NCBI GenBank assembly: GCA_964358005.1
Contig: CAYHNH010000002.1
Location: 18,596-82,595, forward strand
Reading direction: 5' to 3'
DNA from: an uncultured Candidatus Saccharibacteria bacterium
Lineage (GTDB): Bacteria; Patescibacteriota; Minisyncoccia; Phycocordibacterales; PALSA-1337
Length of the DNA: 64,000 nucleotides
Below the pieces are notes generated by a model. That model was not told the origin of the DNA. It searched no databases and saw nothing but the letters and a program-made list of their open reading frames with translations. How positions within the stretch are numbered: position 1 is the stretch's first letter; each line of letters opens with the position of its first letter. Below, piece after piece: positions 4,638-59,545 of this stretch. A program made the position numbers and the translations under genes.

Positions 4638-5618
4638 ATGACTCACGACATCGTTGTCCCATCGAAGCCGAAGATAGTCCGAGAGGATGCGGTAAGCGGC
4701 GTATATGAGATAGATGGCCTCTATCCAGGTTATGGCCATACACTAGGCAATTCTCTGCGCCGCATCATCCTCTCTTCGCTCCCAGGGGCAGCGGTTACTC
4801 GCGTCAAGATATCAGGAGTCGAACATGAATTCTCGACCATAAATGGCGTCAAGGAAGATGTCATCACCATCATACTCAGCCTAAAGAAGCTGCGCATACG
4901 CCTTACTGGCGACGAGCCGGTCACCCTGACACTCAAGGGCAAGGGGGCTATGGAACTCACTGCCAAGGACATAGATGCTCCTGGGCAAGCTGAGATACTC
5001 AATCCTGACCTGTACATAGCTACGCTTTCGGACAAGTCAGCAGATCTGAACATTGAGATGACCGTCGAAAAGGGCTTGGGATACGTATCGAAGGAGAACC
5101 TCCAGAAGGAGCGCGTAGAGATTGGCGTCATCACCCTGGATGCGGCGTTTACACCTATCCGCAAGGCCAACTACGAAGTCGAGAATATGCGCGTCGGTGA
5201 TAGGACAGATTTCAACCGCCTCCGTCTATCGATTGAGACAGATGGGACAATAACCCCACACGAGGCTCTCGAGAATTCTATAGTGCTCATGATCAACCAG
5301 CTCAAGGCCGTCGTAGGTTTCGTAGAGAAGGAAGAGCCGAAACCGGAGGTCAAAGCCGATGAATCAGCCGATAGGAACGCTGGAGCAGAGGGCCGACTCC
5401 CGAAGGAAGTAGATACGGAGCTCCTGAAGACCCGCGTCGATGCTCTCGACCTGTCTTCGAGAACTGTGAAGGCTTTGACGAATGCCAATATCCGCACGCT
5501 GGGGGGTATGGCCCGCAAGAAGGAGTCGGACATCATGGACATAGACGGCTTGGGCGCCAAGGGCATGCAGGAGATAAAGAAGCTCCTCGCCCAGCACGGC
5601 ATTATCCTGAAACAATAG
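4638..5618 (+). CDS. rpoA: DNA-directed RNA polymerase subunit alpha
   Basis: 326 aa with alpha N-terminal and C-terminal domains (GHTLGNSLRRIILSSLPGAAV...; C-terminal HhH region LDLSSRTVKALTNANIRTLG). Confidence 0.93.
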   Translation: MTHDIVVPSKPKIVREDAVSGVYEIDGLYPGYGHTLGNSLRRIILSSLPGAAVTRVKISGVEHEFSTINGVKEDVITIILSLKKLRIRLTGDEPVTLTLKGKGAMELTAKDIDAPGQAEILNPDLYIATLSDKSADLNIEMTVEKGLGYVSKENLQKERVEIGVITLDAAFTPIRKANYEVENMRVGDRTDFNRLRLSIETDGTITPHEALENSIVLMINQLKAVVGFVEKEEPKPEVKADESADRNAGAEGRLPKEVDTELLKTRVDALDLSSRTVKALTNANIRTLGGMARKKESDIMDIDGLGAKGMQEIKKLLAQHGIILKQ

Positions 5619-5624
5619 ACTTAT

Positions 5625-5975
5625 ATGAGGCACCATTCCAACGTACGAAAATTCGGTCGCGAGAAGACACAGAGGCACGCCCTCATGCGTTCTCTGGCCC
5701 GCAACCTTATCCGCGACAACAGGATCAGGACCACCGGCGCCAAGGCCAAGGAATTGCGCCCGTACGTAGAGAAGCTGGTGACTCGCGCAAAGATCGGCAC
5801 GATCGCCTCCAGGCGTTTGGTGAGCTCGAGGCTCATGGGCGACCCTGAGGTCAAGAAGCTTTTTGACGAGATCGCTCCTAAGTACAAGGAGAGGAAGGGC
5901 GGCTACACCAGGATAGTCAAGCTCCCGAACCGCGATCTGGACGGCAGCTCGATGGCCCTCATCGAATTTGTATAA
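5625..5975 (+). CDS. rplQ: 50S ribosomal protein L17
   Basis: 116 aa (MRHHSNVRKFGREKTQRHALMRSLARNLI...). Confidence 0.92.
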   Translation: MRHHSNVRKFGREKTQRHALMRSLARNLIRDNRIRTTGAKAKELRPYVEKLVTRAKIGTIASRRLVSSRLMGDPEVKKLFDEIAPKYKERKGGYTRIVKLPNRDLDGSSMALIEFV

Positions 5976-5982
5976 TACGAAC

Positions 5983-6327
5983 ATGAAATACACCATTGAC
6001 GCACAAGGTAAGAAGATCGGACGCATAGCCTCGGCGGCTGCGGCACGCCTCATGGGCAAGTCCAGCGTCTCCTTCGCTAAGAATAAAGTGCATGCCGAGG
6101 TCGTAGAGATAGTGAACGCCTCGAAAACCGACATGAGCGCGGTGAAGAAGCAGAACGACACTTACGTCACCTATACTGGCCACCGTGGAGGCCTCGAGAG
6201 CGAGACCCTAGGTGAGCTCATCATCCGCCGCGGCATGAAGGAGGTCTATACCCGCGCCATAGAGCGCATGCTCCCGAGGAATAAGCTGCGCAAAGACCGT
6301 ATGAAGAACCTTATCATCAAAGACTAA
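5983..6327 (+). CDS. rplM: 50S ribosomal protein L13
   Basis: L13 family (GKKIGRIASAAAARLMGK...HTGHRGG). The ATG at 5983 is preferred over the track's TTG at 5968. A TATAAT at 5971-5976 lies 6 nt upstream of that ATG. Confidence 0.88.
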   Translation: MKYTIDAQGKKIGRIASAAAARLMGKSSVSFAKNKVHAEVVEIVNASKTDMSAVKKQNDTYVTYTGHRGGLESETLGELIIRRGMKEVYTRAIERMLPRNKLRKDRMKNLIIKD

Positions 6328-6328
6328 T

Positions 6329-6739
6329 ATGACAGCCACAAAACACACCGGAAAATATTTCGAGGCAGTAGGGCGCAGGAAGACTTCGGTCGCTCGCGTG
6401 CGCCTTTTCCCGGCCAAGGAGCTTTCTTTCGAGGTGAACGGCAAGGAGCTCGCGGTATATTTCCCGACTCGAGAGATGCAGGCTACAGCACATGAGGCGA
6501 TCAAGAATGCCAAGCCGGCTGAAAAGTTCTTCATCTCCGCAAAGCTCTCCGGAGGCGGCATCGTCTCCCAGTCTGAAGCCCTCCGTCACGGCATCGCTCG
6601 CGCTCTCCTCGTATACGATATACAGCTTCGCGGCACCCTGAAGAAAGCAGGTTTCCTCTCTCGAGATGCCCGCGCCAAGGAACGCAGAAAGTTCGGTCTG
6701 AAGAAGGCACGTAAGTCTCCGCAGTGGGCAAAACGTTAG
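6329..6739 (+). CDS. rpsI: 30S ribosomal protein S9
   Basis: 136 aa with an S9 C-terminus (GGGIVSQSEALRHGIARALL...ARKSPQWAKR). Confidence 0.92.
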   Translation: MTATKHTGKYFEAVGRRKTSVARVRLFPAKELSFEVNGKELAVYFPTREMQATAHEAIKNAKPAEKFFISAKLSGGGIVSQSEALRHGIARALLVYDIQLRGTLKKAGFLSRDARAKERRKFGLKKARKSPQWAKR

Positions 6740-8296: not shown

Positions 8297-10210
8297 ATGT
8301 CCAAAATCATCGGAATAGACTTAGGAACGACATTCTCGGCTGTGGCTGTCATGGAAGCCGGCGTGCCACGCGTTCTCGAGAACGCGGAGGGCCAAAGGAC
8401 GACCCCTTCCATCGTCGCCCAGTCGAAGACCGGCGAGCGTCTCGTCGGCCTTCTAGCGAAGCGTCAGGCCGTCACCAATCCCAGGAATACGATCTCCCAG
8501 ATCAAGCGATTCATGGGCCACAACTTCGATGAAGCTAGCGTTCAGTCAGACATTAAGAACGTTCCATTCGAAGTTCGAAAGGCCTCAAACGGTGGCATCG
8601 AAGTGAACCTCTCCGGTAAGTGGCTCCGCCCAGAAGAAGTCTCAGCCATGATACTCATGAAGCTGAAGACCGACGCGGAAGCTCGCCTCGGCGAGAAAGT
8701 AACCGAAGCGGTCATCACGGTTCCGGCATACTTCAACGACTCGCAGCGCCAGGCCACGAAAGACGCAGGCAAGATCGCCGGTCTCGACGTGAAGCGAATC
8801 ATCAATGAACCTACGGCTGCAGCGCTCGCGTACGGATTCAACAAAAAGAAGAATGAAAAGATCGCCGTATTCGACTTCGGAGGTGGAACATTCGATATAT
8901 CAGTCCTCGAAGTGGGGGATGATGTCGTCGAAGTAAAGTCCACTGACGGCGACTCGCACCTCGGAGGCCGCGACATCGATGCCAAGATAGTCGCATGGCT
9001 CGCAGACCAGTTCGCGCGCGAGAATGGCATCGACCTACGCAAGGACCCGCTTTCACTTCAGCGCATAGATGAGGCTGCGGAGAAAGCCAAGATAGAGCTT
9101 TCGACTGCAGTATCGACCGAGGTAAACATCCCATTCGTGACTTCTGGAGCTGACGGCCCGAAGCACCTCCTCGTCACCCTCACCCGCGCAAAGCTAGAGG
9201 AGCTAACCGCGGAATTCATCGACCGCGCCATGATGATCACCAAGCGCGCCATGGAGGCTTCTCCATTCAAGGTAGGTGAGATCAACGAAGTAGTCCTTGT
9301 CGGCGGCCAAACACGCATGCCGGCACTCCAAAATGCAGTCAAACAGTTCTTCGGAAAAGATCCTCACATGGGAGTGAATCCCGACGAGGTGGTTGCGGTG
9401 GGCGCCGCCATTCAGGGCGGAATATTGGGCGGTGACGTGAAGGATGTGCTCCTTCTCGATGTCATCCCGCTCTCTCTCGGTATCGAAACTATGGGTGGTG
9501 TAGCGACAAAATTGATCGAGAAGAACACCACCGTACCTACTCAGCGATCGCAGGTATTCTCGACTGCGGCGGATAATCAGACATCCGTGGAGATCCATAT
9601 CAGCCAGGGCGAGCGAGCTCTGTCAGCTGACAACAAGTCGCTCGGAAGGTTCATACTCGACGGCATCCCGCCGTCACCTCGCGGCATGCCGCAGATCGAG
9701 GTCTCATTCGACGTCGATGCGAACGGCATCTTGAATGTGACCGCCAAGGACAAGGCCACAGGCAAGGCGAACTCGATCAAGATCACTGCTTCTAGCGGCC
9801 TTTCAAAGGAAGAGGTCGAGAAGATGAAGCAGGAGGCGGCGGCGCATGAGACGGAGGATAAGACGAAGCGCGAGCATATCGAGACAAGGAATGTGGCGGA
9901 GCAGCTTGTCTACACGGCGGAGAAGGCATTGAAGGATGCGGGTGACAAAGTACCGGCCGATGTGAAGAAGACAATCGAAGAGAAGGTTGCTGCGCTTAAG
10001 ACCGCTAAGGACGCACAGCCCTTAGACGCCGCCGCAGTTAAGACGGCTACTGAAGCACTGTCGACTGAGATTCAGAAGATAGGGCAGTTCATGAATCAGC
10101 AGGAGTCGCAGGGTGGACCACAGGGAGGTGCCCAGGGCGGCGCAGACAACAAAAAAGGCCCGGATGCCGGACCTGAAGTAAAGGACGCCGAGTTCAAGGA
10201 GAAGAAGTAG
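8297..10210 (+). CDS. dnaK: molecular chaperone DnaK (Hsp70)
   Basis: 637 aa with canonical Hsp70 motifs ([14 protein letters not shown]; [13 protein letters not shown]; [13 protein letters not shown]). Confidence 0.95.
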
Positions 10211-10221
10211 TTCATCCTAGG

Positions 10222-10264
10222 TACCTATGCATTTTGGGACAGATTTTGTCTCAAAACGCATAGG
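10222..10264 (+). repeat. 43-nt palindromic intergenic element, copy 1
   Basis: TACCTATGCATTTTGGGACAGATTTTGTCTCAAAACGCATAGG lies 12 nt after the dnaK stop. A near-identical copy is at 16942..16984. Confidence 0.7.
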
Positions 10265-10543
10265 GAGTCGCACCCACGTATGCAGTTCTTAGATAAAAAG
10301 GCCCTCGTAGTTTCCCGGAAGCCTGTTATGAGCAGGGTTCGGGGAAACGAACGAGGGCCGGCAGATGACTTTTCAGTCCTTGGACTGCTAAAAGGGTCGT
10401 TGTTCAACCATCGTCAGGCCATGGGCCGAAAACGAGTTGCTTGAGAAATACGAGGATTGCCAATAGAACCGAGCCGAAATCCTTCAACGGTTCCCAAACC
10501 TCTTCGCGAACGAGTTCCTTGATCATGGAAGTAGAAGTCGAAG

Positions 10544-10768
10544 TTAAAGTGGTCGACCAGTAACTGGAAGATGTGGCGCTTGGTCAACTGCACGAATCAG
10601 GGCCTTCTTCGAAGAGGCTCGCCAAGACATAATACCGATGGCGGCAAACCCGACAGCGATGATATCGAGAATGAGCGCGGCCGTCCTCGAACCAAGTGAC
10701 CAGGCGAACCAGCCGTAAAAGCCGGCGACCAAAGCAAAAAAGAACAGAGTGAGCGAGAGCTGTTTCAT
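10544..10768 (-). CDS. small two-TM membrane protein, hypothetical
   Basis: 74 aa (MKQLSLTLFFFALVAGFYGWFAW...ILDIIAVGFAAIGIMS). Start chosen at the internal Met of the track ORF 10544..10819. Confidence 0.35.
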   Translation of the reverse strand: MKQLSLTLFFFALVAGFYGWFAWSLGSRTAALILDIIAVGFAAIGIMSWRASSKKALIRAVDQAPHLPVTGRPL

Positions 10769-10844
10769 GGTAACTGCGGGGCTGAAGTTTTCAAACAACT
10801 GGACACATTCAACATACAACGTATATTATTAGACGTCAATCAAC

Positions 10845-13461: not shown

Positions 13462-16400
13462 ATGGAAACAAAGAACAGCGAACATTCTTCGGATAGCCGC
13501 TATCTGGCCAAGCTGCAGTTCAGACCAGAACTGCGCAGGATGTGGCTCAATTTTTTTGTCACTAATTTCCGCGTAGTCATACTGCTCATCGCAGTCATCA
13601 CAGCTTGGGGCTTGTATTCATTCTTCACACTGCCGCGCGAATCCAATCCGGAGATAAAGATACCCATAGCCATAGTCATGACACCCTATCCGGGCGCTTC
13701 GCCGTCCGACGTAGAGGAATTCGTGACCAAGAAGATCGAGGCCGAGCTATCCGGCCTCAAGGGTCTAAAGCAATTGTCATCTAGCTCATATAATTCGCTT
13801 TCTTCTATCCAGGTGGAATTCGACGCGAACCAGGACGTAGACGATTCGATACGGCGCTTGAGGGACAAGGTAAATGCTGTTCAGCCCAAGATAACCACGG
13901 AGGCCGATGACTCCGTAGTCACAGAGATATCTATAGACGACGCACCTATATGGTCCATCTCCATCACCGGGCCTTATGACGGATTCACCCTGCGGTCATA
14001 TGCCGAGGACATCAAGGACGAGCTCGAGAAGATAGGCGGCGTTCGCGAGATATCTATATCAGGCGGCGACGAGTATCAGTACGAGGTTGCATACATCCCT
14101 GAGCAGCTGCTTTTCTATGGTTTGAGCGTAAATCAGGTCAATCAAATTATCGCGGCCTCGAATGTGGCCATACCTGCTGGCAACTTCGAGCAGGGCTCCC
14201 TGATATTCCCGGTGCGTACTGATGGAAGATTCACCGACATTAAGAGCCTGGGCGGGATAGCCATCTCCCATACCGATTCTGGATCGACTGTGTACCTGCG
14301 CGATATTGCCAAGGTCAGCGAGACAGCAGTGAAGAAGACAACTTATTCCAGGCTATCCATAAACGGAGGCGAACCCAAGAATTCCGTGAGCCTGGGGCTA
14401 ATAAAACGCCAAGGCTCATCGGTCCTAGAGACGGTAGATGCGGCCAAGAGGGCAGTAGACACAGCCATCGCTTCGTTTCCACCGGGCATAACCTATGACG
14501 TCACCATGGACATGGCTAAGGAGGTCCGTACCAGTTTCGATCAACTGTCGCATGACTTCGTCATCACAGTCCTTCTCGTGGCTGTCATTTTATTCCTCAT
14601 CGTCGGGCTCAAGGAGGCCTTCGTCGCCGGACTGGCCATACCGCTGGTGTTCTTCGTCAGCTTCGGAGTGCTCAAGATGATGGGCATAACCTTGAACTTC
14701 CTATCCCTGTTCTCGCTCATACTGGCCTTGGGCCTCCTGGTCGACGACGCCATCGTGGTCGTATCAGCGACCAAGCAGTACCTGAACACCGGCAAATTCA
14801 CGCCCGAAGAAGCGGTGCTATTGGTGCTCAATGACTTCAAATGGGTGCTCACCACAACGACGCTAGCCACAGTCTGGGCTTTCCTGCCGCTCCTATTCTC
14901 GACAGGCATAGTCGGCCAGTATCTGAAATCCATCCCCATCACGGTCTCCATAACACTCATTGCCTCGCTGTTCATAGCCCTCATGATCAACCACCCACTA
15001 GCGGCCGTGCTCGAGCGCATCCGGCTTACAAGGAGGTTCTTCTTCATCATCGAAGCTCTGCTCATAGTCTTCGCCGCTTGGATGGTCTACATGGGCGGCA
15101 TCATCTTCTACACGCTCGGCGCTCTTGCCGTCGTCATCGAGATATATCTCATCTGGTGGTATGAGCATGGAGGCAAAGGGAAGACGCTAGATAATGCCGT
15201 GCTCATGGAACGGGAATGGCAGGATGATGGTCTCATCAAGCAGAAGCTAGCGGAGCAGGGCGATCGCCACAACGAGAGCTTCTCGAGCCGACTCATCCAC
15301 GGCATCATACATTTCAATATATTCCTGCCCATCTACGAAAAGTACTTGCGGCACTACATTCTGGACAAGAAGCGTCGCCGCCGCGTACTCGCCGGTGTCG
15401 TTGTCCTTTTCGTCGCTTCCATCATGCTGGTGGCTACTGGCGTGATACGCAACGAATTCTTCCCGCCGTCCGACCAGGACTATGTCTACATAGACATGAA
15501 GACTCCGGTCGGGACTAATCTGCAGGCGACTGATTCAAAGGCAAGGGAAGTCGAGAAACTGCTCTACTCATATCCGGATATACAGAGCTTCACGACTACT
15601 ATCGGCCGCGGCAGTCCCAATTCCGGCAACTTCGGCGGGGGAGGTGTGGGCTCTGCGAACATAGCCTCGATAGCTCTCACTCTGAGGGAAAAAGGCGAGC
15701 GCTCCATGAAGTCATTCCTATTCGCCGATGTGGTGAGAGCCGATCTATCCAAAGCGCGCATACCTGGACTGGAGATAAACGTGGCTTCTCTGGCTGGCGG
15801 ACCGCCAGCAGGCGCAGCCTTCGAAGCGCGCGTGATGGGCGACGACTTCGAAACGCTCACCCAAGTGGTGAACGATCTTAAACCGATGCTCGCATCCATC
15901 CCGGGAGCTATAAACGTCAATGCATCTCTCAAGGATTCAGTGCCAGAATACACATTCAAGCTCGACCCGAAAAAGCTCGAAGAGAACCGTCTTAGTGCCA
16001 TAACAGTCGGGTCATACCTGCGTACGGCCATAGCAGGGACAGAGCTCATGAAGATCGTCCGCGACGAGAAGGAAATCAAGCTCATGGCCACATTCGACCA
16101 GGGATCTATACCGACCTTGCAAGCAATACAGAACCTGCAGATCGCGAACTCGCGTGGCGAAGCCGTCTACCTGAAGGATGTGGCCGAGATCGAACTCAAA
16201 CCAGCCGTGGACGTGATCATGCGCATAGACCAGAGGAGGACGGTCCTCTTATCAGCAGGAGCAGATTCGACTACGAACGGCCAGGCCCTGCTCGCTGAAT
16301 TCAATAAGAAGCTGGCCACATACAGCATGCCCTCTGGCTATGCCATCGTGTATGGCGGCGAGAATGAACAGAATGCCGAATCGCTGGTCTCGGTCATGCG

Positions 16401-16881
16401 CGCCATGGTGATCGCTCTCATTCTCATCGTCTCGACTCTCATCATCCAGTTCAATTCCTTTAGGAAGGCCCTCATAGTGCTGGTGCCTATACCGCTGGCG
16501 CTCATCGGCGTCTTCGTCGGCATGGCGGTGTTCGATGTGTCGCTCGGCCTGCCTGGGCTCATCGGCATCCTGGCGCTCTTCGGCATCGTGGTGAAGAACG
16601 CGATCATACTTGTCGACAAGATAAACATAAATATCAAAAGCGGCATCCCATTCGAAGAATCAGTAGTCGATGCCGGAAAGGCCAGGCTCGAAGCGATCTT
16701 CATCACTTCGCTCTGCACGATCTTCGGTATCCTGCCGGTCACATTGTCTGATGAGTTCTGGCAGGCCCTGGGCTCTGCAGTCATCTTCGGTCTACTATTG
16801 TCGTCGTTCCTGACTCTGTTCATCGTCCCGGCGTTCTATCTCATGTTTGTGAAGGATAAATCTTCTGCTGTCATTAATTAG
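13462..16881 (+). CDS. efflux RND transporter permease (AcrB/HAE family)
   Basis: 1139 aa with 12-TM architecture and an AcrB-like signature (SLFSLILALGLLVDDAIVVV). Confidence 0.9.
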   Translation: METKNSEHSSDSRYLAKLQFRPELRRMWLNFFVTNFRVVILLIAVITAWGLYSFFTLPRESNPEIKIPIAIVMTPYPGASPSDVEEFVTKKIEAELSGLKGLKQLSSSSYNSLSSIQVEFDANQDVDDSIRRLRDKVNAVQPKITTEADDSVVTEISIDDAPIWSISITGPYDGFTLRSYAEDIKDELEKIGGVREISISGGDEYQYEVAYIPEQLLFYGLSVNQVNQIIAASNVAIPAGNFEQGSLIFPVRTDGRFTDIKSLGGIAISHTDSGSTVYLRDIAKVSETAVKKTTYSRLSINGGEPKNSVSLGLIKRQGSSVLETVDAAKRAVDTAIASFPPGITYDVTMDMAKEVRTSFDQLSHDFVITVLLVAVILFLIVGLKEAFVAGLAIPLVFFVSFGVLKMMGITLNFLSLFSLILALGLLVDDAIVVVSATKQYLNTGKFTPEEAVLLVLNDFKWVLTTTTLATVWAFLPLLFSTGIVGQYLKSIPITVSITLIASLFIALMINHPLAAVLERIRLTRRFFFIIEALLIVFAAWMVYMGGIIFYTLGALAVVIEIYLIWWYEHGGKGKTLDNAVLMEREWQDDGLIKQKLAEQGDRHNESFSSRLIHGIIHFNIFLPIYEKYLRHYILDKKRRRRVLAGVVVLFVASIMLVATGVIRNEFFPPSDQDYVYIDMKTPVGTNLQATDSKAREVEKLLYSYPDIQSFTTTIGRGSPNSGNFGGGGVGSANIASIALTLREKGERSMKSFLFADVVRADLSKARIPGLEINVASLAGGPPAGAAFEARVMGDDFETLTQVVNDLKPMLASIPGAINVNASLKDSVPEYTFKLDPKKLEENRLSAITVGSYLRTAIAGTELMKIVRDEKEIKLMATFDQGSIPTLQAIQNLQIANSRGEAVYLKDVAEIELKPAVDVIMRIDQRRTVLLSAGADSTTNGQALLAEFNKKLATYSMPSGYAIVYGGENEQNAESLVSVMRAMVIALILIVSTLIIQFNSFRKALIVLVPIPLALIGVFVGMAVFDVSLGLPGLIGILALFGIVVKNAIILVDKININIKSGIPFEESVVDAGKARLEAIFITSLCTIFGILPVTLSDEFWQALGSAVIFGLLLSSFLTLFIVPAFYLMFVKDKSSAVIN

Positions 16882-16941
16882 GCATTAGCCAGACAGTCCC
16901 GCCGGCCCTTTTTCTAGGAGCTTCATACATGGGGGGGCGAC

Positions 16942-16984
16942 TACCTATGCATTTTGGGACAGATTTTGTCTCAAAAGGCATAGG
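16942..16984 (+). repeat. 43-nt palindromic intergenic element, copy 2
   Basis: TACCTATGCATTTTGGGACAGATTTTGTCTCAAAAGGCATAGGTA lies 60 nt after the RND permease stop. Two further perfect hairpins follow at 17001..17020 and 17021..17042. Confidence 0.7.
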
Positions 16985-17089
16985 TACTTAAGATGAACTA
17001 CTTCTTTGTCATGAAAGAAGCCTATAACAAAGATGTTATAGGTCTCATGTACGAACAGGTGTGAGGGCCGCATGGGTAGCGCTTAGATA

Positions 17090-17156: not shown

Positions 17157-17450
17157 TCACTTGGTCGCTTTCTCCGATTTGGAGTCGGTCGTCTTCGGCG
17201 ACGGCAAGCCGTCATCGAAGACAATCCAGACACCATAGAACATGTTCTTGACCTCGCCGTCGTAGTAGACGTTGAAACTGACGAGCTTCAATGTCGGATG
17301 ATCATCGATCCACTTGTCGATGACCGTCGCGACGGTTTGGGGAGTTATGCGGGTGTTGTCCGCGAGACTGACAAACACTGTGCGTTGTTTGGCAAAGGCG
17401 ACTGAAGTCGCCGAAAGGAAAAGGCAAACCAGTAGGAGCATCTTTTTCAT
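17157..17450 (-). CDS. small secreted protein, hypothetical
   Basis: 97 aa with a signal peptide (MKKMLLLVCLFLSATSVAFA) and a terminator downstream. Confidence 0.5.
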   Translation of the reverse strand: MKKMLLLVCLFLSATSVAFAKQRTVFVSLADNTRITPQTVATVIDKWIDDHPTLKLVSFNVYYDGEVKNMFYGVWIVFDDGLPSPKTTDSKSEKATK

Positions 17451-32205: not shown

Positions 32206-33468
32206 TTATATGCACTGGATGTCCCACGAATCGCATTCCGCGCCGCATGACATACTTGTTCCAGTAACCGTACACCCATCAAGAACATCTCCTATATACT
32301 CACCGTAGTCATTGTATGCTGGCGAATAAGTGCAATCCATCTTGCTGCACGAGCAACCGTCCCCAGAGCAATCCATGTCACCTTCGTCGCAAGAGCATGT
32401 TATCGTGTATGACACACAGACTTCTTGTTCTATACACCCACCACCCCCTCCTCCACCACCGGTCGGTGGTTCCGAAGGTGGTTCTGAAGGCGCCTCAGAT
32501 GGCGGCTCTGAAGGAGCTTCCGAGGGTGGTTCTGAAGGAGGAGTTGAAGGCGGCTCGGTTGGTGGTTCCGAGGGTGGATCAGAAGGAGGTGTCGAGGGTG
32601 GTTCCGACGGCGGTTCTGAAGGAGGAGTCGAAGGCGGCTCTGAAGGAGCTTCTGAGGGCGGTTCTGAAGGAGGAGTTGAAGGTGGCTCGGATGGTGGTAC
32701 CGAAGGAGGTTCAGATGGCGGCACACTTGGCTCTGGGGTAGGTGTAGATCCTCCACAAGCGGCCGTTCCATAGTCACTGCAACCAAGGTCACAATGATCG
32801 CCGCAGACAGTCGAACCGTCGCTACCAGTGGCTCCACACGAGGCATTTGCGCAAGGATTGGTGCATACAGGCAGCCCAGCCAATGGGCAACCGGCATCGC
32901 AAGAATCGCCGCAAGTCGTCACACCGTCGCTGCCGGTCTGGCCGCAACTCTTTCCGTCACAGACACCTACGCACGCCGCCGTTCCAGCATCTGGACACCC
33001 AGTATCGCAGTGGCTACCACAGGTGGTCGAGCCGTCAGTGCCAGTCTCGCCGCAATCATACCCGCTAGGACAGGCGCAAGCGGCGGTTCCGGCATCGGGA
33101 CAGCCTGTGTCGCAGCTGCTGCCGCAGGTCGTCACACCGTCCGACCCGGTATCTCCACAGGAGACACCGGTGCAGACATCCACTCCACAATTATTCAAGG
33201 AAACGTTCGGAGCACCGTTGTTCACAATAGAAAGCCACTCATTTTGGGTCTTTGTGCCTATGAAAAGGTTCTTGGAATTGGCATTGTCGACATCTCTACA
33301 GATGCTGTACTCGTCTATGGTCTCCACAGCCCCCGCTCCGACATCATACCAGTTGTAATTAGCCGCCAAGGCGGGTGTAATCTGAAATGAGAAAAATGAG
33401 AAAACAGCCACCGCAGCGAACGCGATCCTAAGAGCCTTGAATACTGATGTATATACGTTTCTCTTCAT
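32206..33468 (-). CDS. secreted cysteine-rich repeat protein with (PPSE)n low-complexity linker
   Basis: Signal peptide, then four roughly 40-aa Cys-rich modules (SCG.TGSDG.TTCG..CD.GCP.AG), then about 25 tandem PPSEPPS-type repeats, a Gly8 run, and a Cys-rich C-terminus. Confidence 0.8.
   Translation of the reverse strand: MKRNVYTSVFKALRIAFAAVAVFSFFSFQITPALAANYNWYDVGAGAVETIDEYSICRDVDNANSKNLFIGTKTQNEWLSIVNNGAPNVSLNNCGVDVCTGVSCGDTGSDGVTTCGSSCDTGCPDAGTAACACPSGYDCGETGTDGSTTCGSHCDTGCPDAGTAACVGVCDGKSCGQTGSDGVTTCGDSCDAGCPLAGLPVCTNPCANASCGATGSDGSTVCGDHCDLGCSDYGTAACGGSTPTPEPSVPPSEPPSVPPSEPPSTPPSEPPSEAPSEPPSTPPSEPPSEPPSTPPSDPPSEPPTEPPSTPPSEPPSEAPSEPPSEAPSEPPSEPPTGGGGGGGGCIEQEVCVSYTITCSCDEGDMDCSGDGCSCSKMDCTYSPAYNDYGEYIGDVLDGCTVTGTSMSCGAECDSWDIQCI
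32461..32735. repeat. 12-nt periodic tandem repeat (coding; PPSE-type peptide repeat)
   Basis: The unit ggtggttctgaa(ggn) is repeated about 23 times. This repeat produces the false ORFs in several alternative frames. Confidence 0.85.
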
Positions 33469-38156: not shown

Positions 38157-38169
38157 TTCGCATGTATAC

Positions 38170-46292: not shown

Positions 46293-46792
46293 GTTCGTTC
46301 TATCTTATTCCTTCTAGAAATGGACAGTGGCGGCTCGCTCATCGAAACCCCAAAAAATCTGAAAGGCATATTTCACGTCGTAAAATATTTTCATCGCCAG
46401 GAAACCCTTGTGGCGCCTACTCAACTAGACAATGCTTTTATGGACTTGTCCGTGATTGCTTTTGGAGTTTGGAATGAGGCCAGGCTTCCTGATGTGATTT
46501 TGTGCCATTTCCATCTCCTCAATCTCCGCCGCCGCCAGTACTATCTCCGGTACAAGGAAAAAATTTATTTACACGAACTGCTAAGCGTGACGGCGTAAAG
46601 GATTTCCCAGTCAATTTTTTGAAAATTTGGCTAAAAACTATAGATGTTTCATGATATCTCATCATGTCCACCACAAAAATACCTAACCACAAAACATCTG
46701 GGCAAACATGTAAATGAAATTTTGCGAGCCGCCGGACAACCTGCCCCCCGCCCGCTCCACAATGACCGGTTTTTTATTTGAATCCATCATCT

Positions 46793-49457: not shown

Positions 49458-50543
49458 CTATTCGGCCTCTGGCTTATCCAACATCGTCGCAGTGAGCTCT
49501 GGAGCCACGTCGGTTATGCGCAAGACGTCCTTATCGAGCTTCTTGAATTCCTTGCTAGAGCTATTGTAATGGTTCACCACCGTGCTTAGAGAGGCCCCGA
49601 GCTTGGCATGATATTCGTTGTACTTATTCAGGTGTGTACCGAGCTCGCCCACACGCTTGACGATATCCTTGGCCGTCTCCTCTATCTGCATAGCCTTGAG
49701 CCCCTGGAGAACCGTCTGTAGATACGCCAGGAATGAAGTCGGTGACACGATGATGACCTTGTACTTGCTCGCCGCGCGTTGGATCAGATTATCGGTTTCC
49801 TCGGCTATGGCCCCTATCTTGTTCACCAGGAGATCGTAATAGATGGCCTCGTGAGGAATGAACATGAAGGCAAAATCCATCGTACCCTCGGCCGGGCGCA
49901 CGTATTTGGCCGTCTCCTGGATGCGGGTCTTCAGGTCGTTCACGAATTCCTTCTCCAGCTTGGCCCTGGTCTCGGCATTGCGTTCACCGGATAGCTTGTT
50001 GTAGTTCTCGAGCGAGAACTTGGAGTCCACCGGTATGACCTTGTCCTTCACGAATACAGCCGCGTCCACGACTTCCCCATTCTTGAATGCGTACTGCATC
50101 TTGTACTGGCCAGGAGCCAGGACGTTAGCGAGAAGCGTCTCGAGATAGTATTCACCGAGGATGCCGCGGTGCTTGGGATTCTTAAGGATATCCTGGAGAT
50201 TCTCGAGCTGATCGGCGAATGACACGACCTGCTTGTTGGTCTCATCGAGCTTGGTCAGACCCTGCGTGACTTCCTTGATCAGCTTGGCGGACTCTGACAG
50301 CTGGGCGCGCATCGAGTCCTGCATCGAGACGGCGCTCTGGTGGATCTTGTTATCGACGGTCCTGGTGAGATCGCCGACCTTGCGGTCCACGGTACGGTTG
50401 AGCTCGTTTACCTGCTCCAGGATCAGGCTCAAGCCTTCACCATCCTGCTTCTGCTGTTCCGGCTTGCGACGCAGGAATACTAGGGCGAATATGACATTGG
50501 CAATTACGGCCAAAATGACTAGAATGATGAGTATAGTCTCCAT
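49458..50543 (-). CDS. rmuC: DNA recombination protein RmuC
   Basis: N-terminal TM helix, coiled coil, and an RmuC C-terminal nuclease-like domain (FAFMFIPHEAIYYDLL). Confidence 0.8.
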   Translation of the reverse strand: METILIILVILAVIANVIFALVFLRRKPEQQKQDGEGLSLILEQVNELNRTVDRKVGDLTRTVDNKIHQSAVSMQDSMRAQLSESAKLIKEVTQGLTKLDETNKQVVSFADQLENLQDILKNPKHRGILGEYYLETLLANVLAPGQYKMQYAFKNGEVVDAAVFVKDKVIPVDSKFSLENYNKLSGERNAETRAKLEKEFVNDLKTRIQETAKYVRPAEGTMDFAFMFIPHEAIYYDLLVNKIGAIAEETDNLIQRAASKYKVIIVSPTSFLAYLQTVLQGLKAMQIEETAKDIVKRVGELGTHLNKYNEYHAKLGASLSTVVNHYNSSSKEFKKLDKDVLRITDVAPELTATMLDKPEAE

Positions 50544-55537: not shown

Positions 55538-56125
55538 ATGCATCCCACATTTACCTTTGACGCCGACGCATTCGCGCGCGTCCAAAGGATCCTTAGCCTG
55601 AGATCAGACGACATCGCGCACATGCTAGCGACTGACAGATGCCTAGTGATCGGCAGAACCGGGCTGGGCAACATCCAGATCCTCTTCTGGAGCCAAGACG
55701 ACCGGAAATTCTTCGTTGCCGAGGTGATCGAGCTCGAAAGACGCGTAATCTCGATCGAGCTACTGACCCGGAACCATCCCAAGGTGGAGGAGGATGACCT
55801 CCTAGCCATGATCAGCCAAAGCTCTCGTGAATCAGCCTGCAAGAGACAGCGGCGGGAGAGGAGACAGCCGACCAATCCCCAAAACTACATCTTCACTTTT
55901 TCGCTCGGTCGGCCGGGCGCGGTGCCGCGGATAAAAAGGGTGAAGATACCTGTCAGCGATTTTCCGAGCTATGTTAGGGACCCGACCGGTCTCGAACGCG
56001 AGCGCGCTTTGATCGAGCGCCTCCAGTTCCTGATCGCGCAGGAGATCCAGCCGGGAGAGAATCTCCTCGGCATCAGAGTGAGCTCTGGTCAAAATGCTTG
56101 GCGGTTGCCCTTCAATCTGCCCTAG
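55538..56125 (+). CDS. hypothetical protein
   Basis: ORF divergent from truD and followed by a terminator. No recognised domain. Confidence 0.35.
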   Translation: MHPTFTFDADAFARVQRILSLRSDDIAHMLATDRCLVIGRTGLGNIQILFWSQDDRKFFVAEVIELERRVISIELLTRNHPKVEEDDLLAMISQSSRESACKRQRRERRQPTNPQNYIFTFSLGRPGAVPRIKRVKIPVSDFPSYVRDPTGLERERALIERLQFLIAQEIQPGENLLGIRVSSGQNAWRLPFNLP

Positions 56126-56130
56126 TTACA

Positions 56131-56162
56131 CAACCGGCGGCTTTGCCTCCGGTTTTATTGTT
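56131..56162 (+). terminator. rho-independent terminator
   Basis: AACCGGCGG ctttg CCTCCGGTT TTATTGTT. Confidence 0.5.
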
Positions 56163-56178
56163 CACGGAAATAACCACT

Positions 56179-57792
56179 CTACGCTTTCCTAAATGGCTCC
56201 AATTCCACCACGAATGTCGAGCCCTTGCCTTCTCCGGCTGATTCCGCCCTTATGGTGCCATGATGTGCCTCCACCATCTGCTTGGCCACGAACAGTCCGA
56301 GTCCGGTGCCCTTGATGTTGACCTTGTTGGCATTGTTGGCTCGCGAGAATTTCTGGAAGAGATGCGGCAATATCTCCGGATCTATGCCTATGCCAGTGTC
56401 CTTGATCTCAAATATGATGACCTGCCTCTTGTGATCGAATGACAGAGTAACTGCAACCGAGCCGGAAGGCGTGTATTTCACCGAATTATCTACGAGGTTG
56501 GCTATGACCTGCTTCAGCTTGTCGCGGTCAGCGGTTATGCGGTAATCGGTACCGTTGTTCTCGGCAGCGAAACTGAAGTTCAAGCCCTTACCCTCAATGT
56601 TCGGCTTGAGCTCGGCTATGACGTCCTCGACCATGAGTTTGAGGTCAATGGTCTCGAATGTATATTTCATCGTTCCGAGCTCTATCCTGCTGATATTAAG
56701 GTAGTCGTTAACTATACTGACCAGTGTGTTCGTAGAATCAAATATGCGCTCTATGCCCTCCTTGGCCGCCGGCGGCAGTTCTCCCATGTCGCCTTCGAGC
56801 AATAGAGAGCCGTAACCCTTCATGGCCGTAAGCGGCGCGCGCAGCTGATGCGTAGCGAACGACACGAACTCTGACTTCTGCCTATCCAGCTCCGTGAGGC
56901 GCGTATTGGCCTTCTCCAGATCATCTGCCAGCTTTTGGATGCGTTCGCGTTGTTCAATCTCGTTAAACACATTCTTTACCAACCAAATTCCAAATATAAC
57001 AGTCAAAACAAGGATAACTCCACCAATAATTGCATCCTCAAAACTCTGTGCAAGTACAACCCTAAATAGTAAGGTTATCCAGATCGTTGCTGTCAGCAAT
57101 TGAGCTGTTATAACCCTAATATCAAACAGCTTATATTTTAAAATCGCATAGGCAATAATGAGTGGATAAAATGCAAATAATATCACTGGAAACGGTGGAA
57201 TCAGTACATTGAAGGTCAGAAGGAAAACACTACTACCACCTATAAATCCAGCTACCGATGAAAAAAGGATGTACTTAAGTCTGTGACCTTCCTCTTTTGA
57301 AACCTTCTTTATCTTTAATGATAGTAATATCAACGCAAAAATTACCGTCGCAAAAAAGTAAACAGTAAATGCAACATACAGCGGCCCTGCATTTGGTACA
57401 TAGGGCAAAGTTCCCTTAGAGAATACATCGGTAACAAATAATACAGAAGGCGTAACGGATGCAAAATATATAGCTATTATTCCAAAAACAAATAAAAAGG
57501 GCTTATATTTTTTTAATTCTTCAATAACAGTAATTATAAAAAACAAATAAAAAAATGGAATAAATGATGCACCGATATGTAAAATAATATCGCTTAAAAC
57601 TGCGGCTTCTTTACTTGAGGCTATTAGCATACTGTAATAACCAAAACTCCATATGCCTGTTGATATAGAGAGCAAAAGCCAAATTATGCTTTTAAGTTGC
57701 TTCGAGTTACTTAAAAAAACCAACAATCCAGAACCGAGAGCAACTAAACCACCTATAAAAAGAGACAAGCTATAGTATGTAAAGAAAAACAT
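56179..57792 (-). CDS. sensor histidine kinase with N-terminal 7TM receptor domain (orphan)
   Basis: 7 TM helices, a coiled-coil linker, a HisKA H-box (SFATHQLRAPL), and HATPase_c N/G1/G2 boxes. Confidence 0.85.
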   Translation of the reverse strand: MFFFTYYSLSLFIGGLVALGSGLLVFLSNSKQLKSIIWLLLSISTGIWSFGYYSMLIASSKEAAVLSDIILHIGASFIPFFYLFFIITVIEELKKYKPFLFVFGIIAIYFASVTPSVLFVTDVFSKGTLPYVPNAGPLYVAFTVYFFATVIFALILLSLKIKKVSKEEGHRLKYILFSSVAGFIGGSSVFLLTFNVLIPPFPVILFAFYPLIIAYAILKYKLFDIRVITAQLLTATIWITLLFRVVLAQSFEDAIIGGVILVLTVIFGIWLVKNVFNEIEQRERIQKLADDLEKANTRLTELDRQKSEFVSFATHQLRAPLTAMKGYGSLLLEGDMGELPPAAKEGIERIFDSTNTLVSIVNDYLNISRIELGTMKYTFETIDLKLMVEDVIAELKPNIEGKGLNFSFAAENNGTDYRITADRDKLKQVIANLVDNSVKYTPSGSVAVTLSFDHKRQVIIFEIKDTGIGIDPEILPHLFQKFSRANNANKVNIKGTGLGLFVAKQMVEAHHGTIRAESAGEGKGSTFVVELEPFRKA

Positions 57793-57815
57793 GTTCTGTG
57801 GATTGATTATAACAT

Positions 57816-59471: not shown

Positions 59472-59545
59472 TTAATTGGGTTAAACCAGGGTAGTGGATA
59501 TACGAGTATTATTGTATCATAGGAATTTGACCACTACTTATAGTT

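What the first reader, a model, noticed from the sequence alone, without database searches (positions are those of the whole stretch)
10222..10264. 43-nt palindromic element present twice, each just downstream of a plus-strand gene
TACCTATGCATTTTGGGACAGATTTTGTCTCAAAA(C/G)GCATAGG(TA) occurs 12 nt after the dnaK stop and again 60 nt after the RND permease stop (16942..16984). The two copies are about 95% identical. The only change is a single central C/G difference, which falls at the same mismatched stem position in both copies.

Each copy folds into a 13-15-bp stem with a roughly 16-nt loop and has no U-tract. Candidates are a U-tract-less terminator, a REP/MITE-like mobile repeat, or a protein-binding site.
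Basis: seen in the sequence. Interest (0 to 1): 0.55.

Follow-up and report, generated by a model that had tools for sequence, protein, structure and literature searches.

The report
Low-copy hairpin repeat with flipped core
The 43-base palindrome is real, but it is the core of a roughly 110-base intergenic repeat in a groundwater Patescibacteria (CPR) genome that was copied from the end of dnaK to other sites, with its central hairpin turned around in one copy; it is an uncatalogued but fairly ordinary kind of small dispersed repeat.

Summary
The 43-mer is at both stated coordinates with one mismatch (42/43), where chance predicts none. It folds into a 17-19 bp stem with a 5-nt loop, not a 13-15 bp stem with a 16-nt loop.

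The two copies are not parallel. Their flanks match only when copy 2 is reverse-complemented. This defines a ~110-nt unit at 10194-10303 (+) and 17006-16904 (-).

Six of the seven asymmetric core positions agree in the direct orientation and none in the inverted one. So the 27-nt centre is flipped relative to the flanks in one copy.

A third copy lies in a metagenome contig from the same aquifer. The unit's left end carries the native dnaK stop region, and relatives lack the palindrome downstream of dnaK. The dnaK copy is therefore the founder.

All three copies sit between convergent genes. In each, the gene lacking its own terminator (dnaK, RND permease, pth) reads the same RNA version of the hairpin.

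There was no Rfam, plasmid, phage, viral-contig or GTDB-representative match. No transposase was found among the Pfam-scanned ORFs of at least 120 aa.

Best reading: a low-copy, REP-like 3'-end hairpin module spread by segmental duplication, with a hairpin inversion by template switching. Function is inferred, not shown. Interest is modest.

The parts
10194..10303 (+). Repeat unit, copy 1 (founder). It comprises the last ~17 nt of dnaK with its stop codon, the L flank TTCATCCTAGG, the palindromic core, the R flank GAGTCGCACCCACGTATGCAGTTCTTAGATAAAAA, and the first GGCC of the adjacent terminator stem.
   Evidence: Local alignments to copy 2(-) and to L001. nhmmer E=3e-36. blastn against L001 gives 112 nt at 85%, E=5.5e-28.
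10222..10264 (.). Palindromic core, copy 1: the 43-mer. The stem-forming 41-mer is 10224-10264.
   Evidence: RNA -23.6 kcal/mol and DNA -13.7 kcal/mol, with no shuffle folding as well.
10231..10257 (.). 27-nt centre between the outer arms CCTATGC and GCATAGG. It holds all seven asymmetric positions: the A.C mismatch, the G.U pair and the loop GATTT.
10295..10359 (-). Strong minus-strand intrinsic terminator: a 60-nt hairpin followed by UUUUUAU. It is conserved downstream of dnaK in relatives that lack the palindrome. The unit's R end abuts it.
   Evidence: Fold at -42.8 kcal/mol, z -5.9. Conserved in L005 and L006.
16904..17006 (-). Repeat unit, copy 2, inverted relative to copy 1. Homology with the third copy (L001) continues to 16882, right up to the RND stop codon.
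   Evidence: Flanks match only in the inverted orientation (0 of 1000 shuffles on each side).
16942..16986 (.). Palindromic core, copy 2: the 43-mer plus TA, giving a 9+10 bp stem.
   Evidence: It is the longest inverted repeat listed in the window (I1, 20-nt arms 5 nt apart).
16951..16977 (.). 27-nt centre of copy 2. It has the same + strand orientation as copy 1 although the flanks are reversed, so it is flipped relative to its own flanks.
   Evidence: 6 of 7 asymmetric positions agree in the direct orientation and 0 of 7 in the inverted one.
16882..16913 (+). Decayed remnant of a terminator downstream of the RND permease gene. It is homologous to the intact terminator of the S1-domain gene in L001 but no longer forms a stable hairpin.
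   Evidence: Fold at -10.1 kcal/mol, z -0.5, against -29.4 kcal/mol for L001. Alignment.
17001..17042 (-). Two small hairpins, CTTCTTTGTCATGAAAGAAG and CCTATAACAAAGATGTTATAGG, between the small minus-strand gene and copy 2. The second is terminator-like on the minus strand.
8297..10210 (+). dnaK. Its last codons (K E K K stop) form the left end of the repeat unit.
   Evidence: All close homologues end in KDAEFKEK(K/N).
13462..16881 (+). AcrB-type RND permease. It reads into copy 2 without a functional terminator of its own.
   Evidence: Pfam ACR_tran, E=2e-175. Fold.
17157..17450 (-). 97-aa ORF with a hydrophobic, signal-peptide-like N-terminus (judged by eye), convergent on copy 2. A strong promoter-like site lies at 17506-17478 (TTGACA-17-TAGAAT, 11 of 12).
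   Evidence: No Pfam hit.
10544..10819 (-). Possible small membrane-protein ORF (two hydrophobic stretches, judged by eye) convergent on copy 1. Coding status is uncertain because it is not conserved in relatives.
   Evidence: Relatives have other small ORFs at this place.

Best explanation
The 43-mer is the core of a low-copy (three copies known), ~110-nt dispersed intergenic repeat in a Patescibacteria (Paceibacterota-like) genome from Hainich groundwater.

Shown:
- The founder copy sits directly behind dnaK.
- The other copies carry 9-17 nt of the native dnaK 3' end on one side. On the other side they carry the native A-tract and the start of the neighbouring terminator.
- They therefore arose by copying a DNA segment from the dnaK locus, not by a transposon cutting at its own ends.
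- In copy 2 the flanks are inverted relative to copy 1, yet the 27-nt centre has the same + strand orientation. The centre has been flipped within its outer arms.

Inferred:
- The flip arose by intramolecular template switching, or by recombination between the hairpin arms. This is the known mechanism of inverted-repeat spacer inversion.
- The element works as a stable RNA hairpin, equally stable on both strands, at the 3' end of convergent transcripts. It would block 3'-to-5' exonucleases and read-through for a gene that lacks its own canonical terminator (dnaK, the RND operon, pth).
- It would not act as a classical intrinsic terminator, because it has no U-tract.
- The core is more conserved than the flanks. 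In all three copies the same RNA version (loop GAUUU) faces the unterminated gene. Both points suggest the core sequence is under selection.
For: - Exact two-copy repeat with none expected by chance.
- Stable hairpin on both strands, as RNA and as DNA. It is the longest hairpin-type inverted repeat listed in the window.
- Flank homology appears only in the inverted orientation: 0 of 1000 shuffles reach the observed score on each side, while the direct orientation is not significant. The core agrees at 6 of 7 asymmetric positions in the direct orientation and 0 of 7 in the inverted one.
- A third copy, L001, from the same aquifer lies between pth and an S1-domain gene.
- All close DnaK homologues end in KDAEFKEK(K/N).
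- Relatives L005, L006 and L007 lack the palindrome. L005 and L006 keep the big terminator, and L006 keeps AGTTCTTAACAAAAAACGGCCC, which corresponds to the unit's right end.
- Core divergence is 1/43 against 12/60 in the flanks (Fisher p=0.007).
- Copies 1 and 2 have identical sequence in independent assemblies of the same aquifer sample series.
- Terminator layout: a strong terminator on the opposite-strand side of copy 1 and of L001, a decayed one after the RND gene, and a terminator-like hairpin after the small minus-strand gene.
- Spacer inversion and arm homogenisation by template switching between inverted-repeat arms are documented (PMC8604942, PMC8794818, abstracts seen).
Against: - There are no expression or 3'-end data, so the RNA function rests only on position.
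- The hairpin has no U-tract. Other terminator-like hairpins seen in the window are short and GC-rich, some with A/T tracts.
- Only three copies are known, so the match between orientation and gene direction has a chance probability of about 0.25.
- There is no compensatory covariation. L001's two changes weaken the outer stem.
- Higher core identity together with the flip could both come from a single event instead of from selection. That event could be ectopic conversion or re-insertion of the core.
- The mechanism of the segmental duplications themselves is unknown.
- L001 is a 1.2-kb, 3x-coverage contig whose assignment to the same genome is inferred from sample and GC content only.
Confidence: 0.45

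Rival explanations
1. The 41-bp palindrome CCTATGC...GCATAGG is itself a miniature mobile element of the MITE, REP or RPE type. A trans-acting transposase inserts it in either orientation, duplicating TA, into a preferred target. That target happens to be an older, diverged ~70-nt repeat.
For: - TA flanks both sides of the core in copy 2 and in L001.
- The core is much better conserved than the flanks.
- Core orientation is uncoupled from flank orientation.
- A core-like sequence lies in frame inside a variable loop of truB. It is 25/25 identical in a related genome, and 26 of 33 aligned positions (~79%, counted by eye; nhmmer E=4e-5) in what is probably the same organism. This recalls Rickettsia palindromic elements.
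Against: - Every known copy has homologous flanks on both sides. No copy has unrelated flanks and no empty L-R junction was found.
- TA...TA is self-complementary and may simply extend the stem.
- No transposase, integrase or reverse-transcriptase domain was found among the Pfam-scanned ORFs of at least 120 aa in the window.
- Only 2 copies occur in about 85 kb of sequence from this organism.
- An exact 21-mer scan of metagenome contigs gave only 3 loci.
- There were no matches in viral contigs, in the plasmid or phage collections, or among GTDB representative genomes.
Confidence: 0.2
2. The palindrome is a DNA-level binding or processing site for a dimeric protein: a regulator, a nucleoid or topology factor at convergent gene ends, or a recombinase. 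Its orientation is set relative to the chromosome, not to the flanks.
For: - The symmetry is near perfect, and conservation is at the level of sequence, not only structure. It includes the loop and the mismatch positions.
- Both window copies have the same + strand orientation.
- All sites are convergent intergenic regions, where REP/BIME elements in E. coli bind gyrase and IHF (own knowledge).
Against: - At 41 bp it is far longer than usual operators.
- No candidate binding protein is encoded next to any copy.
- The site is absent downstream of dnaK in close relatives, so it is not part of a conserved regulon.
- It does not match CIRCE.
Confidence: 0.12
3. The repeat is a neutral by-product. 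A fragile hairpin-containing segment was duplicated a few times by replication errors and has no function. The high core identity reflects recent ectopic conversion.
For: - Copy number is very low.
- Native flanks were carried along in the duplicates.
- The terminator remnant in copy 2 has decayed.
- There is no covariation.
- The element is absent from relatives.
Against: - The core is significantly better conserved than the flanks (p=0.007).
- The only core substitution between the two window copies falls at an already unpaired position.
- Small CPR genomes rarely keep useless repeats (general knowledge).
Confidence: 0.2

Closest known systems
REP / REPIN elements (repetitive extragenic palindromes mobilised by RAYT transposases; PMC3116915, PMC3337134)
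   Same: - A short imperfect palindrome.
- Extragenic, at gene 3' ends and between convergent genes.
- Occurs in both orientations.
- Plausible role as an mRNA 3'-end stabiliser.
   Different: - There is no conserved GTAG foot next to the stem.
- Three known copies, against tens to hundreds for REPs.
- No RAYT domain was found among the scanned ORFs in the window.
- Each arm is not itself a REP palindrome, so it is not a REPIN doublet.
- Copies share co-duplicated native flanks.
MITEs with a TA target duplication (IS630/Tc1-type, for example Correia/NEMIS elements)
   Same: - TA on both sides of the inverted-repeat core in two of three copies.
- Intergenic location.
- Hairpin-forming.
   Different: - At 41 bp it would be unusually small for a MITE (own knowledge).
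- Flanking DNA is homologous between copies.
- No empty sites were found.
- No parent IS was found in the window or the fetched loci.
Small hairpin-associated inversions and inverted-repeat spacer inversion by template switching (PMC8604942, PMC8794818; chloroplast examples PMC6824564, PMC12928735)
   Same: - The segment between two short inverted arms is inverted as a block.
- All asymmetric positions flip together while the stem is preserved.
   Different: - Here the flip is seen between paralogous copies in one bacterial genome, not between orthologues.
- The inverted block includes most of the stem, not just the loop.
Rickettsia palindromic elements (RPE; own knowledge, Ogata et al. 2000)
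   Same: - A palindromic repeat found both intergenically and, possibly, in frame inside a housekeeping gene (the truB variable loop in L003 and L022).
   Different: - RPEs are 100-150 bp and numerous.
- The truB case here is a 25-33-nt similarity whose origin (insertion or native coding sequence) is unresolved.
Rho-independent (intrinsic) terminators
   Same: - A stable hairpin just after stop codons.
- It is the first strong hairpin for dnaK, the RND operon and pth.
   Different: - There is no U-tract on either strand.
- The stem is AT-richer and about twice as long as the GC-rich terminator-like hairpins seen elsewhere in the window.

Membership tests
REP / RAYT system | Imperfect palindrome of 20-40 nt in extragenic space | tested here: met
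   A 41-43-nt imperfect palindrome, with both window copies in intergenic DNA.
REP / RAYT system | Conserved GTAG/GTGG tetranucleotide at the 5' foot of the hairpin (own knowledge of the family) | tested here: not met
   The stem starts with (TA)CCTATGC. GTAG occurs only 11 nt upstream, within the dnaK stop region, and in copy 2(-) just after the stem. It is not at a conserved foot position.
REP / RAYT system | High copy number (tens to hundreds per genome) | tested here: inconclusive
   Two copies in the 64-kb window and none in a further ~21 kb from the same population. The exact 21-mer gave 3 metagenome loci. The whole genome was not available.
REP / RAYT system | A cognate RAYT (Y1 transposase) gene in the genome, usually flanked by REPs | tested here: inconclusive
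   No Y1_Tnp or other transposase domain among 51 window ORFs scanned with Pfam. The rest of the genome was not seen.
MITE (non-autonomous DNA transposon) | Terminal inverted repeats bounded by a target-site duplication, with unrelated flanks at each insertion | tested here: not met
   TA...TA is present in 2 of 3 copies. The flanks of all three copies are homologous for 20-40 nt on both sides.
MITE (non-autonomous DNA transposon) | A parent IS with matching terminal inverted repeats | tested here: inconclusive
   None in the window. There was no match in the plasmid, phage, viral-contig or GTDB-representative searches.
Intrinsic terminator | GC-rich hairpin immediately followed by a U-tract | tested here: not met
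   There is no run of T within 10 nt after the stem on either strand. The site was not called by the terminator scan.
Intrinsic terminator | Transcript 3' ends map at the hairpin | not testable with these tools
   No RNA data are available.
Known RNA family (Rfam 15) | Score at or above a family's gathering threshold | tested here: not met
   No hits in the whole window at gathering thresholds. Only generic miRNA-precursor hairpin models scored 11-24 bits, against thresholds of 51-113.
Integron attC site | R'' RYYYAAC ... R' GTTRRRY core sites at the ends of the imperfect palindrome (own knowledge) | tested here: not met
   By eye, the ends are CCTATGC and GCATAGG. The only GTT-containing heptamer, GTTTTGA on the minus strand, violates RRR.
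CIRCE (HrcA operator of dnaK/groE operons) | TTAGCACTC-N9-GAGTGCTAA | tested here: not met
   No match in the window at up to 3 mismatches. The element also lies downstream of dnaK, not upstream.
Hairpin spacer inversion by template switching | All asymmetric positions between two inverted arms change together to their reverse complement while the sequence outside the arms is unchanged | tested here: met
   Seven asymmetric positions: 6 agree in the direct orientation and 0 in the inverted one, while the flanks are homologous only when inverted.

The most novel reading that the evidence does not exclude
The 25-27-nt inner palindrome TTTTGGGACA-GATTT-TGTCTCAAAA is a sequence-specific, orientation-dependent signal recognised by a factor of these Paceibacterota, either an RNA-binding protein or nuclease or a DNA recombinase.

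It would be able to move or be re-oriented independently of its surroundings. It flips within the 110-nt unit so that the same RNA version always faces the unterminated gene. It has also entered the truB coding sequence in frame in two related genomes.

That would make it a new kind of small mobile or self-reorienting 3'-end element in CPR bacteria.
Probability: 0.12. Interest if true: 0.6.

Novelty: new member of a known kind. Interest (0 to 1): 0.35.

Why it matters
CPR/Patescibacteria genomes are small, and I found no description of dispersed palindromic repeats in them (a single literature search returned none).

This element gives a clean natural example of three things:
- an intergenic module born at one locus (the dnaK 3' end) and then copied elsewhere together with its native flanks;
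- a block inversion of a hairpin core between paralogues, the signature of template switching;
- a candidate U-tract-less 3'-end hairpin in a lineage whose transcription termination is unstudied.

If the orientation rule holds genome-wide, it would give a testable handle on how these organisms end or stabilise transcripts. If it does not hold, the element is a minor curiosity.

Tried and rejected
1. Rfam. At gathering thresholds on the whole window there was nothing. E-value mode on both loci gave only sub-threshold miRNA-hairpin models.

2. Exact 21-mer core against GTDB representative genomes: 0 hits. A degenerate inner pattern gave 10 loci in unrelated phyla, none with CCTATGC/GCATAGG arms. 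I judged these to be unrelated hairpins. Viral contigs gave 0 hits. Plasmid and phage blastn of the 121-nt unit gave none.

3. Apparent half-sites TATACCTATACG at 38165 and 61775. Both lie at the 3' ends of ORFs, inside coding sequence, so they are chance similarities.

4. A profile (nhmmer) of the 113-nt unit on the window and all loci found no further copy and no empty L-R junction.

5. A peptide search for ORFs that read through the element, using six-frame translations, found nothing. The method is insensitive.

6. A small-ORF reading of the element is rejected. MHFGTDFVSKRIGSRTHVCSS (copy 1) and MNYFF... on the opposite strand are not conserved between copies and have no Shine-Dalgarno sequence (by eye).

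7. A promoter reading is rejected. Weak -35/-10-like hexamers (TTGTCY-17-TARGAT) exist by eye, but they were not called by the scan.

8. An active phase-variable flip is not supported at consensus level. Independent assemblies R1, R3 and the window show the same orientation at both loci.

9. The small minus-strand ORFs between dnaK and dnaJ are not homologous among relatives. The claim of a convergent gene at copy 1 therefore rests mainly on the conserved minus-strand terminator.

Full report
**Observation.** The 43-mer TACCTATGCATTTTGGGACAGATTTTGTCTCAAAA[C/G]GCATAGG occurs at 10222-10264 and 16942-16984 on the + strand. These are the only two matches at up to 3 mismatches, and none is expected in shuffled sequence. 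Identity is 42/43.

Copy 1 has 7+10 bp and copy 2 has 9+10 bp. Each has one 1x1 internal loop, one G-U pair and a 5-nt loop. Energies are -23.6 and -25.7 kcal/mol as RNA, and the complementary strand folds equally well. As DNA the values are -13.7 and -16.3 kcal/mol. It is the longest hairpin-type inverted repeat listed in the window. The single difference lies at the already unpaired position. No T-tract follows on either strand.

**Source and gene context.** DnaK homologues, where a source names the organism, are labelled Patescibacteria, Paceibacterota, Parcubacteria or Taylorbacteria. Contigs identical to the window come from the 0.1-um filter fraction of Hainich well H41: L004 has 1 mismatch and L002 has none.

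Gene order is rpsI-grpE-orf107-dnaK, then copy 1, then dnaJ, a HlyD-type membrane-fusion protein and an AcrB-type RND permease, then copy 2, then trpS.

Both copies lie in convergent intergenic regions:
- Copy 1 is followed by a strong minus-strand terminator at 10295-10359 (-42.8 kcal/mol, then UUUUUAU).
- Copy 2 lies between the RND gene and a 97-aa minus-strand ORF with a hydrophobic, signal-peptide-like N-terminus. That ORF has a near-consensus promoter-like site and its own terminator-like hairpin.

**The repeat is larger, and copy 2 is inverted.** Alignment with copy 2 reverse-complemented extends the homology in both directions. On one side it runs from AAGAAGTAGTTCATCYTARG. On the other it runs through GKAGTCGC..CCCAYGTATGMAGYTCYTAGA-AAAAGGSCC. 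This defines a ~110-nt unit at 10194/10202-10303 (+) and 17006-16904 (-).

In a shuffle test the flanks match only in the inverted orientation, with 0 of 1000 shuffles reaching the observed score on each side. In the direct orientation they do not exceed chance.

The core behaves the opposite way. The 41-mer has seven asymmetric positions: 8, 14, 19, 21, 23, 28 and 34. Copy 2(+) agrees with copy 1(+) at six of them, and copy 2(-) agrees at none. The 27-nt centre between the arms CCTATGC and GCATAGG is therefore flipped relative to its flanks in one of the two copies.

**Third copy.** An exact 21-mer scan of metagenome contigs returned three loci:
- L002, which is the copy 2 locus itself.
- L001, a third copy from the same aquifer. 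It lies between pth and an S1-domain gene, and its centre and flanks are oriented as in copy 1.
- L003, discussed below.

L001 and copy 2 share an additional ~25 nt on the R side. In L001 this is an intact terminator of the S1-domain gene (-29.4 kcal/mol). In copy 2 it has decayed (-10.1 kcal/mol, z -0.5).

**Origin.** All close DnaK homologues end in KDAEFKEK(K/N). The AAGGAGAAGAAGTAG at the unit's left end is therefore native dnaK sequence. L001 contains 11-17 nt of it outside any long ORF, and copy 2 contains at least 9 nt.

Relatives with 88-90% identical DnaK lack the palindrome downstream of dnaK:
- L005 and L006 conserve the big minus-strand terminator.
- L006 conserves AGTTCTTAACAAAAAACGGCCC, which corresponds to the unit's right end.
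- In L007, dnaJ follows dnaK directly.

The dnaK copy is therefore the founder. The other copies are segmental duplicates that carried native flanks with them. This argues against a transposon that cuts at its own ends.

**Searches for relatives or known families.**
- Rfam gave nothing at gathering thresholds, and only sub-threshold miRNA-hairpin models otherwise.
- There was no hit in the plasmid or phage collections or in viral contigs.
- There was no hit to the exact core in 185,579 GTDB representative genomes.
- A degenerate inner pattern gave ten unrelated hairpins in other phyla.
- A profile of the unit finds no further copy in the window, nor in ~21 kb of additional sequence from the same population.
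- Pfam scans of 51 window ORFs (44 ORFs of at least 120 aa, plus genes and small ORFs next to the copies) show ordinary housekeeping genes and no transposase, integrase or reverse transcriptase.

**Conservation.** Between the two window copies the core has 1 difference in 43 positions. The flanks have about 12 in 60 aligned positions (Fisher p=0.007). L001 has two changes in the right outer arm. These weaken the stem without abolishing it, and there is no compensatory covariation.

**Mechanism.** The block inversion of everything between two short inverted arms, with the stem preserved, is the known outcome of intramolecular template switching or recombination between inverted-repeat arms (PMC8604942, PMC8794818; chloroplast small inversions in PMC6824564). 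I favour this explanation for the flip.

Two alternatives would explain both the flip and the high core identity in a single step:
- ectopic conversion in antiparallel register;
- independent insertion of the core.

**Function (inferred only).** In each of the three copies one of the two convergent genes has its own terminator: the minus-strand unit at copy 1, the small ORF at copy 2, and the S1-domain gene in L001. The other gene does not: dnaK, the RND operon and pth. For that gene the palindrome is the first strong hairpin.

In all three cases the unterminated gene's transcript would contain the same version of the hairpin, with loop GAUUU. This fits a REP-like 3'-end hairpin that blocks exonucleases and read-through. 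With n=3 the match has a chance probability of about 0.25. There is no U-tract and there are no RNA data.

**Unresolved side observation.** L003 comes from a related Paceibacterota: against L022, HisS is 78%, sigma factor 97% and TruB 66% identical. It carries a 25/25 match to the core, plus a second similar unit next to it. Both are in frame inside a length-variable loop of truB.

The probable truB of the window organism is on L022, from the same sample at the same 5x coverage. At the same place it has a version matching at 26 of 33 aligned positions (~79%, counted by eye; nhmmer E=4e-5). This may be an old RPE-like in-frame insertion, or the source of the core, or coincidence. I could not decide among these.

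**Verdict.** It is a new family of a known general kind: small dispersed palindromic intergenic repeats. It fails the membership tests for REP/RAYT, classical MITE, intrinsic terminator, attC and CIRCE. Its function is not established. Interest is modest.

Noticed in passing
L003:6108-6181 (truB-like ORF 5844-6656); L022:10267-10305 (truB 10001-10720): A sequence identical to the core over 25 nt, with a second similar unit next to it, lies in frame in a variable loop of truB in a related Paceibacterota. The probable truB of the window organism has a version matching at 26 of 33 aligned positions (~79%) at the same place. It could be an RPE-like insertion, the source of the core, or coincidence.
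   Followed up: partly
window 10295-10359 (-); L005:4965-5035; L006:2420-2490: A ~60-nt long hairpin preceded by an A-tract, which is a terminator on the minus strand, is conserved between dnaK and dnaJ in three relatives. The small minus-strand ORFs upstream of it are not homologous to one another. The region between dnaK and dnaJ seems to be a hotspot for small, fast-changing genes. In L007 the two genes are adjacent.
   Followed up: partly
L006:2333-2422: In the relative L006, the place occupied by the palindrome holds a small hydrophobic ORF, MRNAITWLAILIVIPACILLGIYIWLFSS. Its last codons (AGT TCT TAA) correspond to the AGTTCTTAG retained at the right end of the repeat unit in the window.
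   Followed up: no
window 46406-46437 and L001:397-428: Another short repeat, 32 nt at 87.5% identity. One copy lies downstream of dnaB in the window, possibly within a 92-aa ORF of unknown status. The other lies immediately upstream of the L flank of the third copy. This hints that intergenic regions here are mosaics of short modules.
   Followed up: no
window 32453-32757 (within ORF 32206-33468, minus strand): A 12-nt tandem repeat encodes a (PPSE)n linker, followed by a G8 run, in a Cys-rich protein with a hydrophobic N-terminus and no Pfam match. The N-terminal half has four ~45-aa Cys-rich repeats.
   Followed up: partly
window 56000-60000: A low-GC island (35-43% against about 52% for the window) carries a 7TM-sensor histidine kinase (56179-57792), a 551-aa protein with no Pfam match (57816-59471) and a further large membrane ORF with kinase-like motifs that was not Pfam-scanned (59546-61255). 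It may have been acquired horizontally.
   Followed up: no
window 49458-50543 (-): An RmuC-family gene. In E. coli, rmuC mutants show raised inversion at short inverted repeats (own knowledge). This is a curiosity given the flipped hairpin core.
   Followed up: no
window 1-64000: No tRNA or tmRNA genes were found (ARAGORN), and no Rfam family reached its gathering score in 64 kb. No CIRCE operator was found near the grpE-dnaK-dnaJ genes.
   Followed up: yes
L008:2779-2863 and 5074-5158 (Gemmataceae MAG): Two near-identical long hairpins (GGAAC[C/T]TTTTTGAGACAAGTCGTGTCTCAAAAAGCTTCC with conserved flanks) lie 2.3 kb apart. This is an unrelated palindromic repeat family met by chance in the pattern scan.
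   Followed up: no
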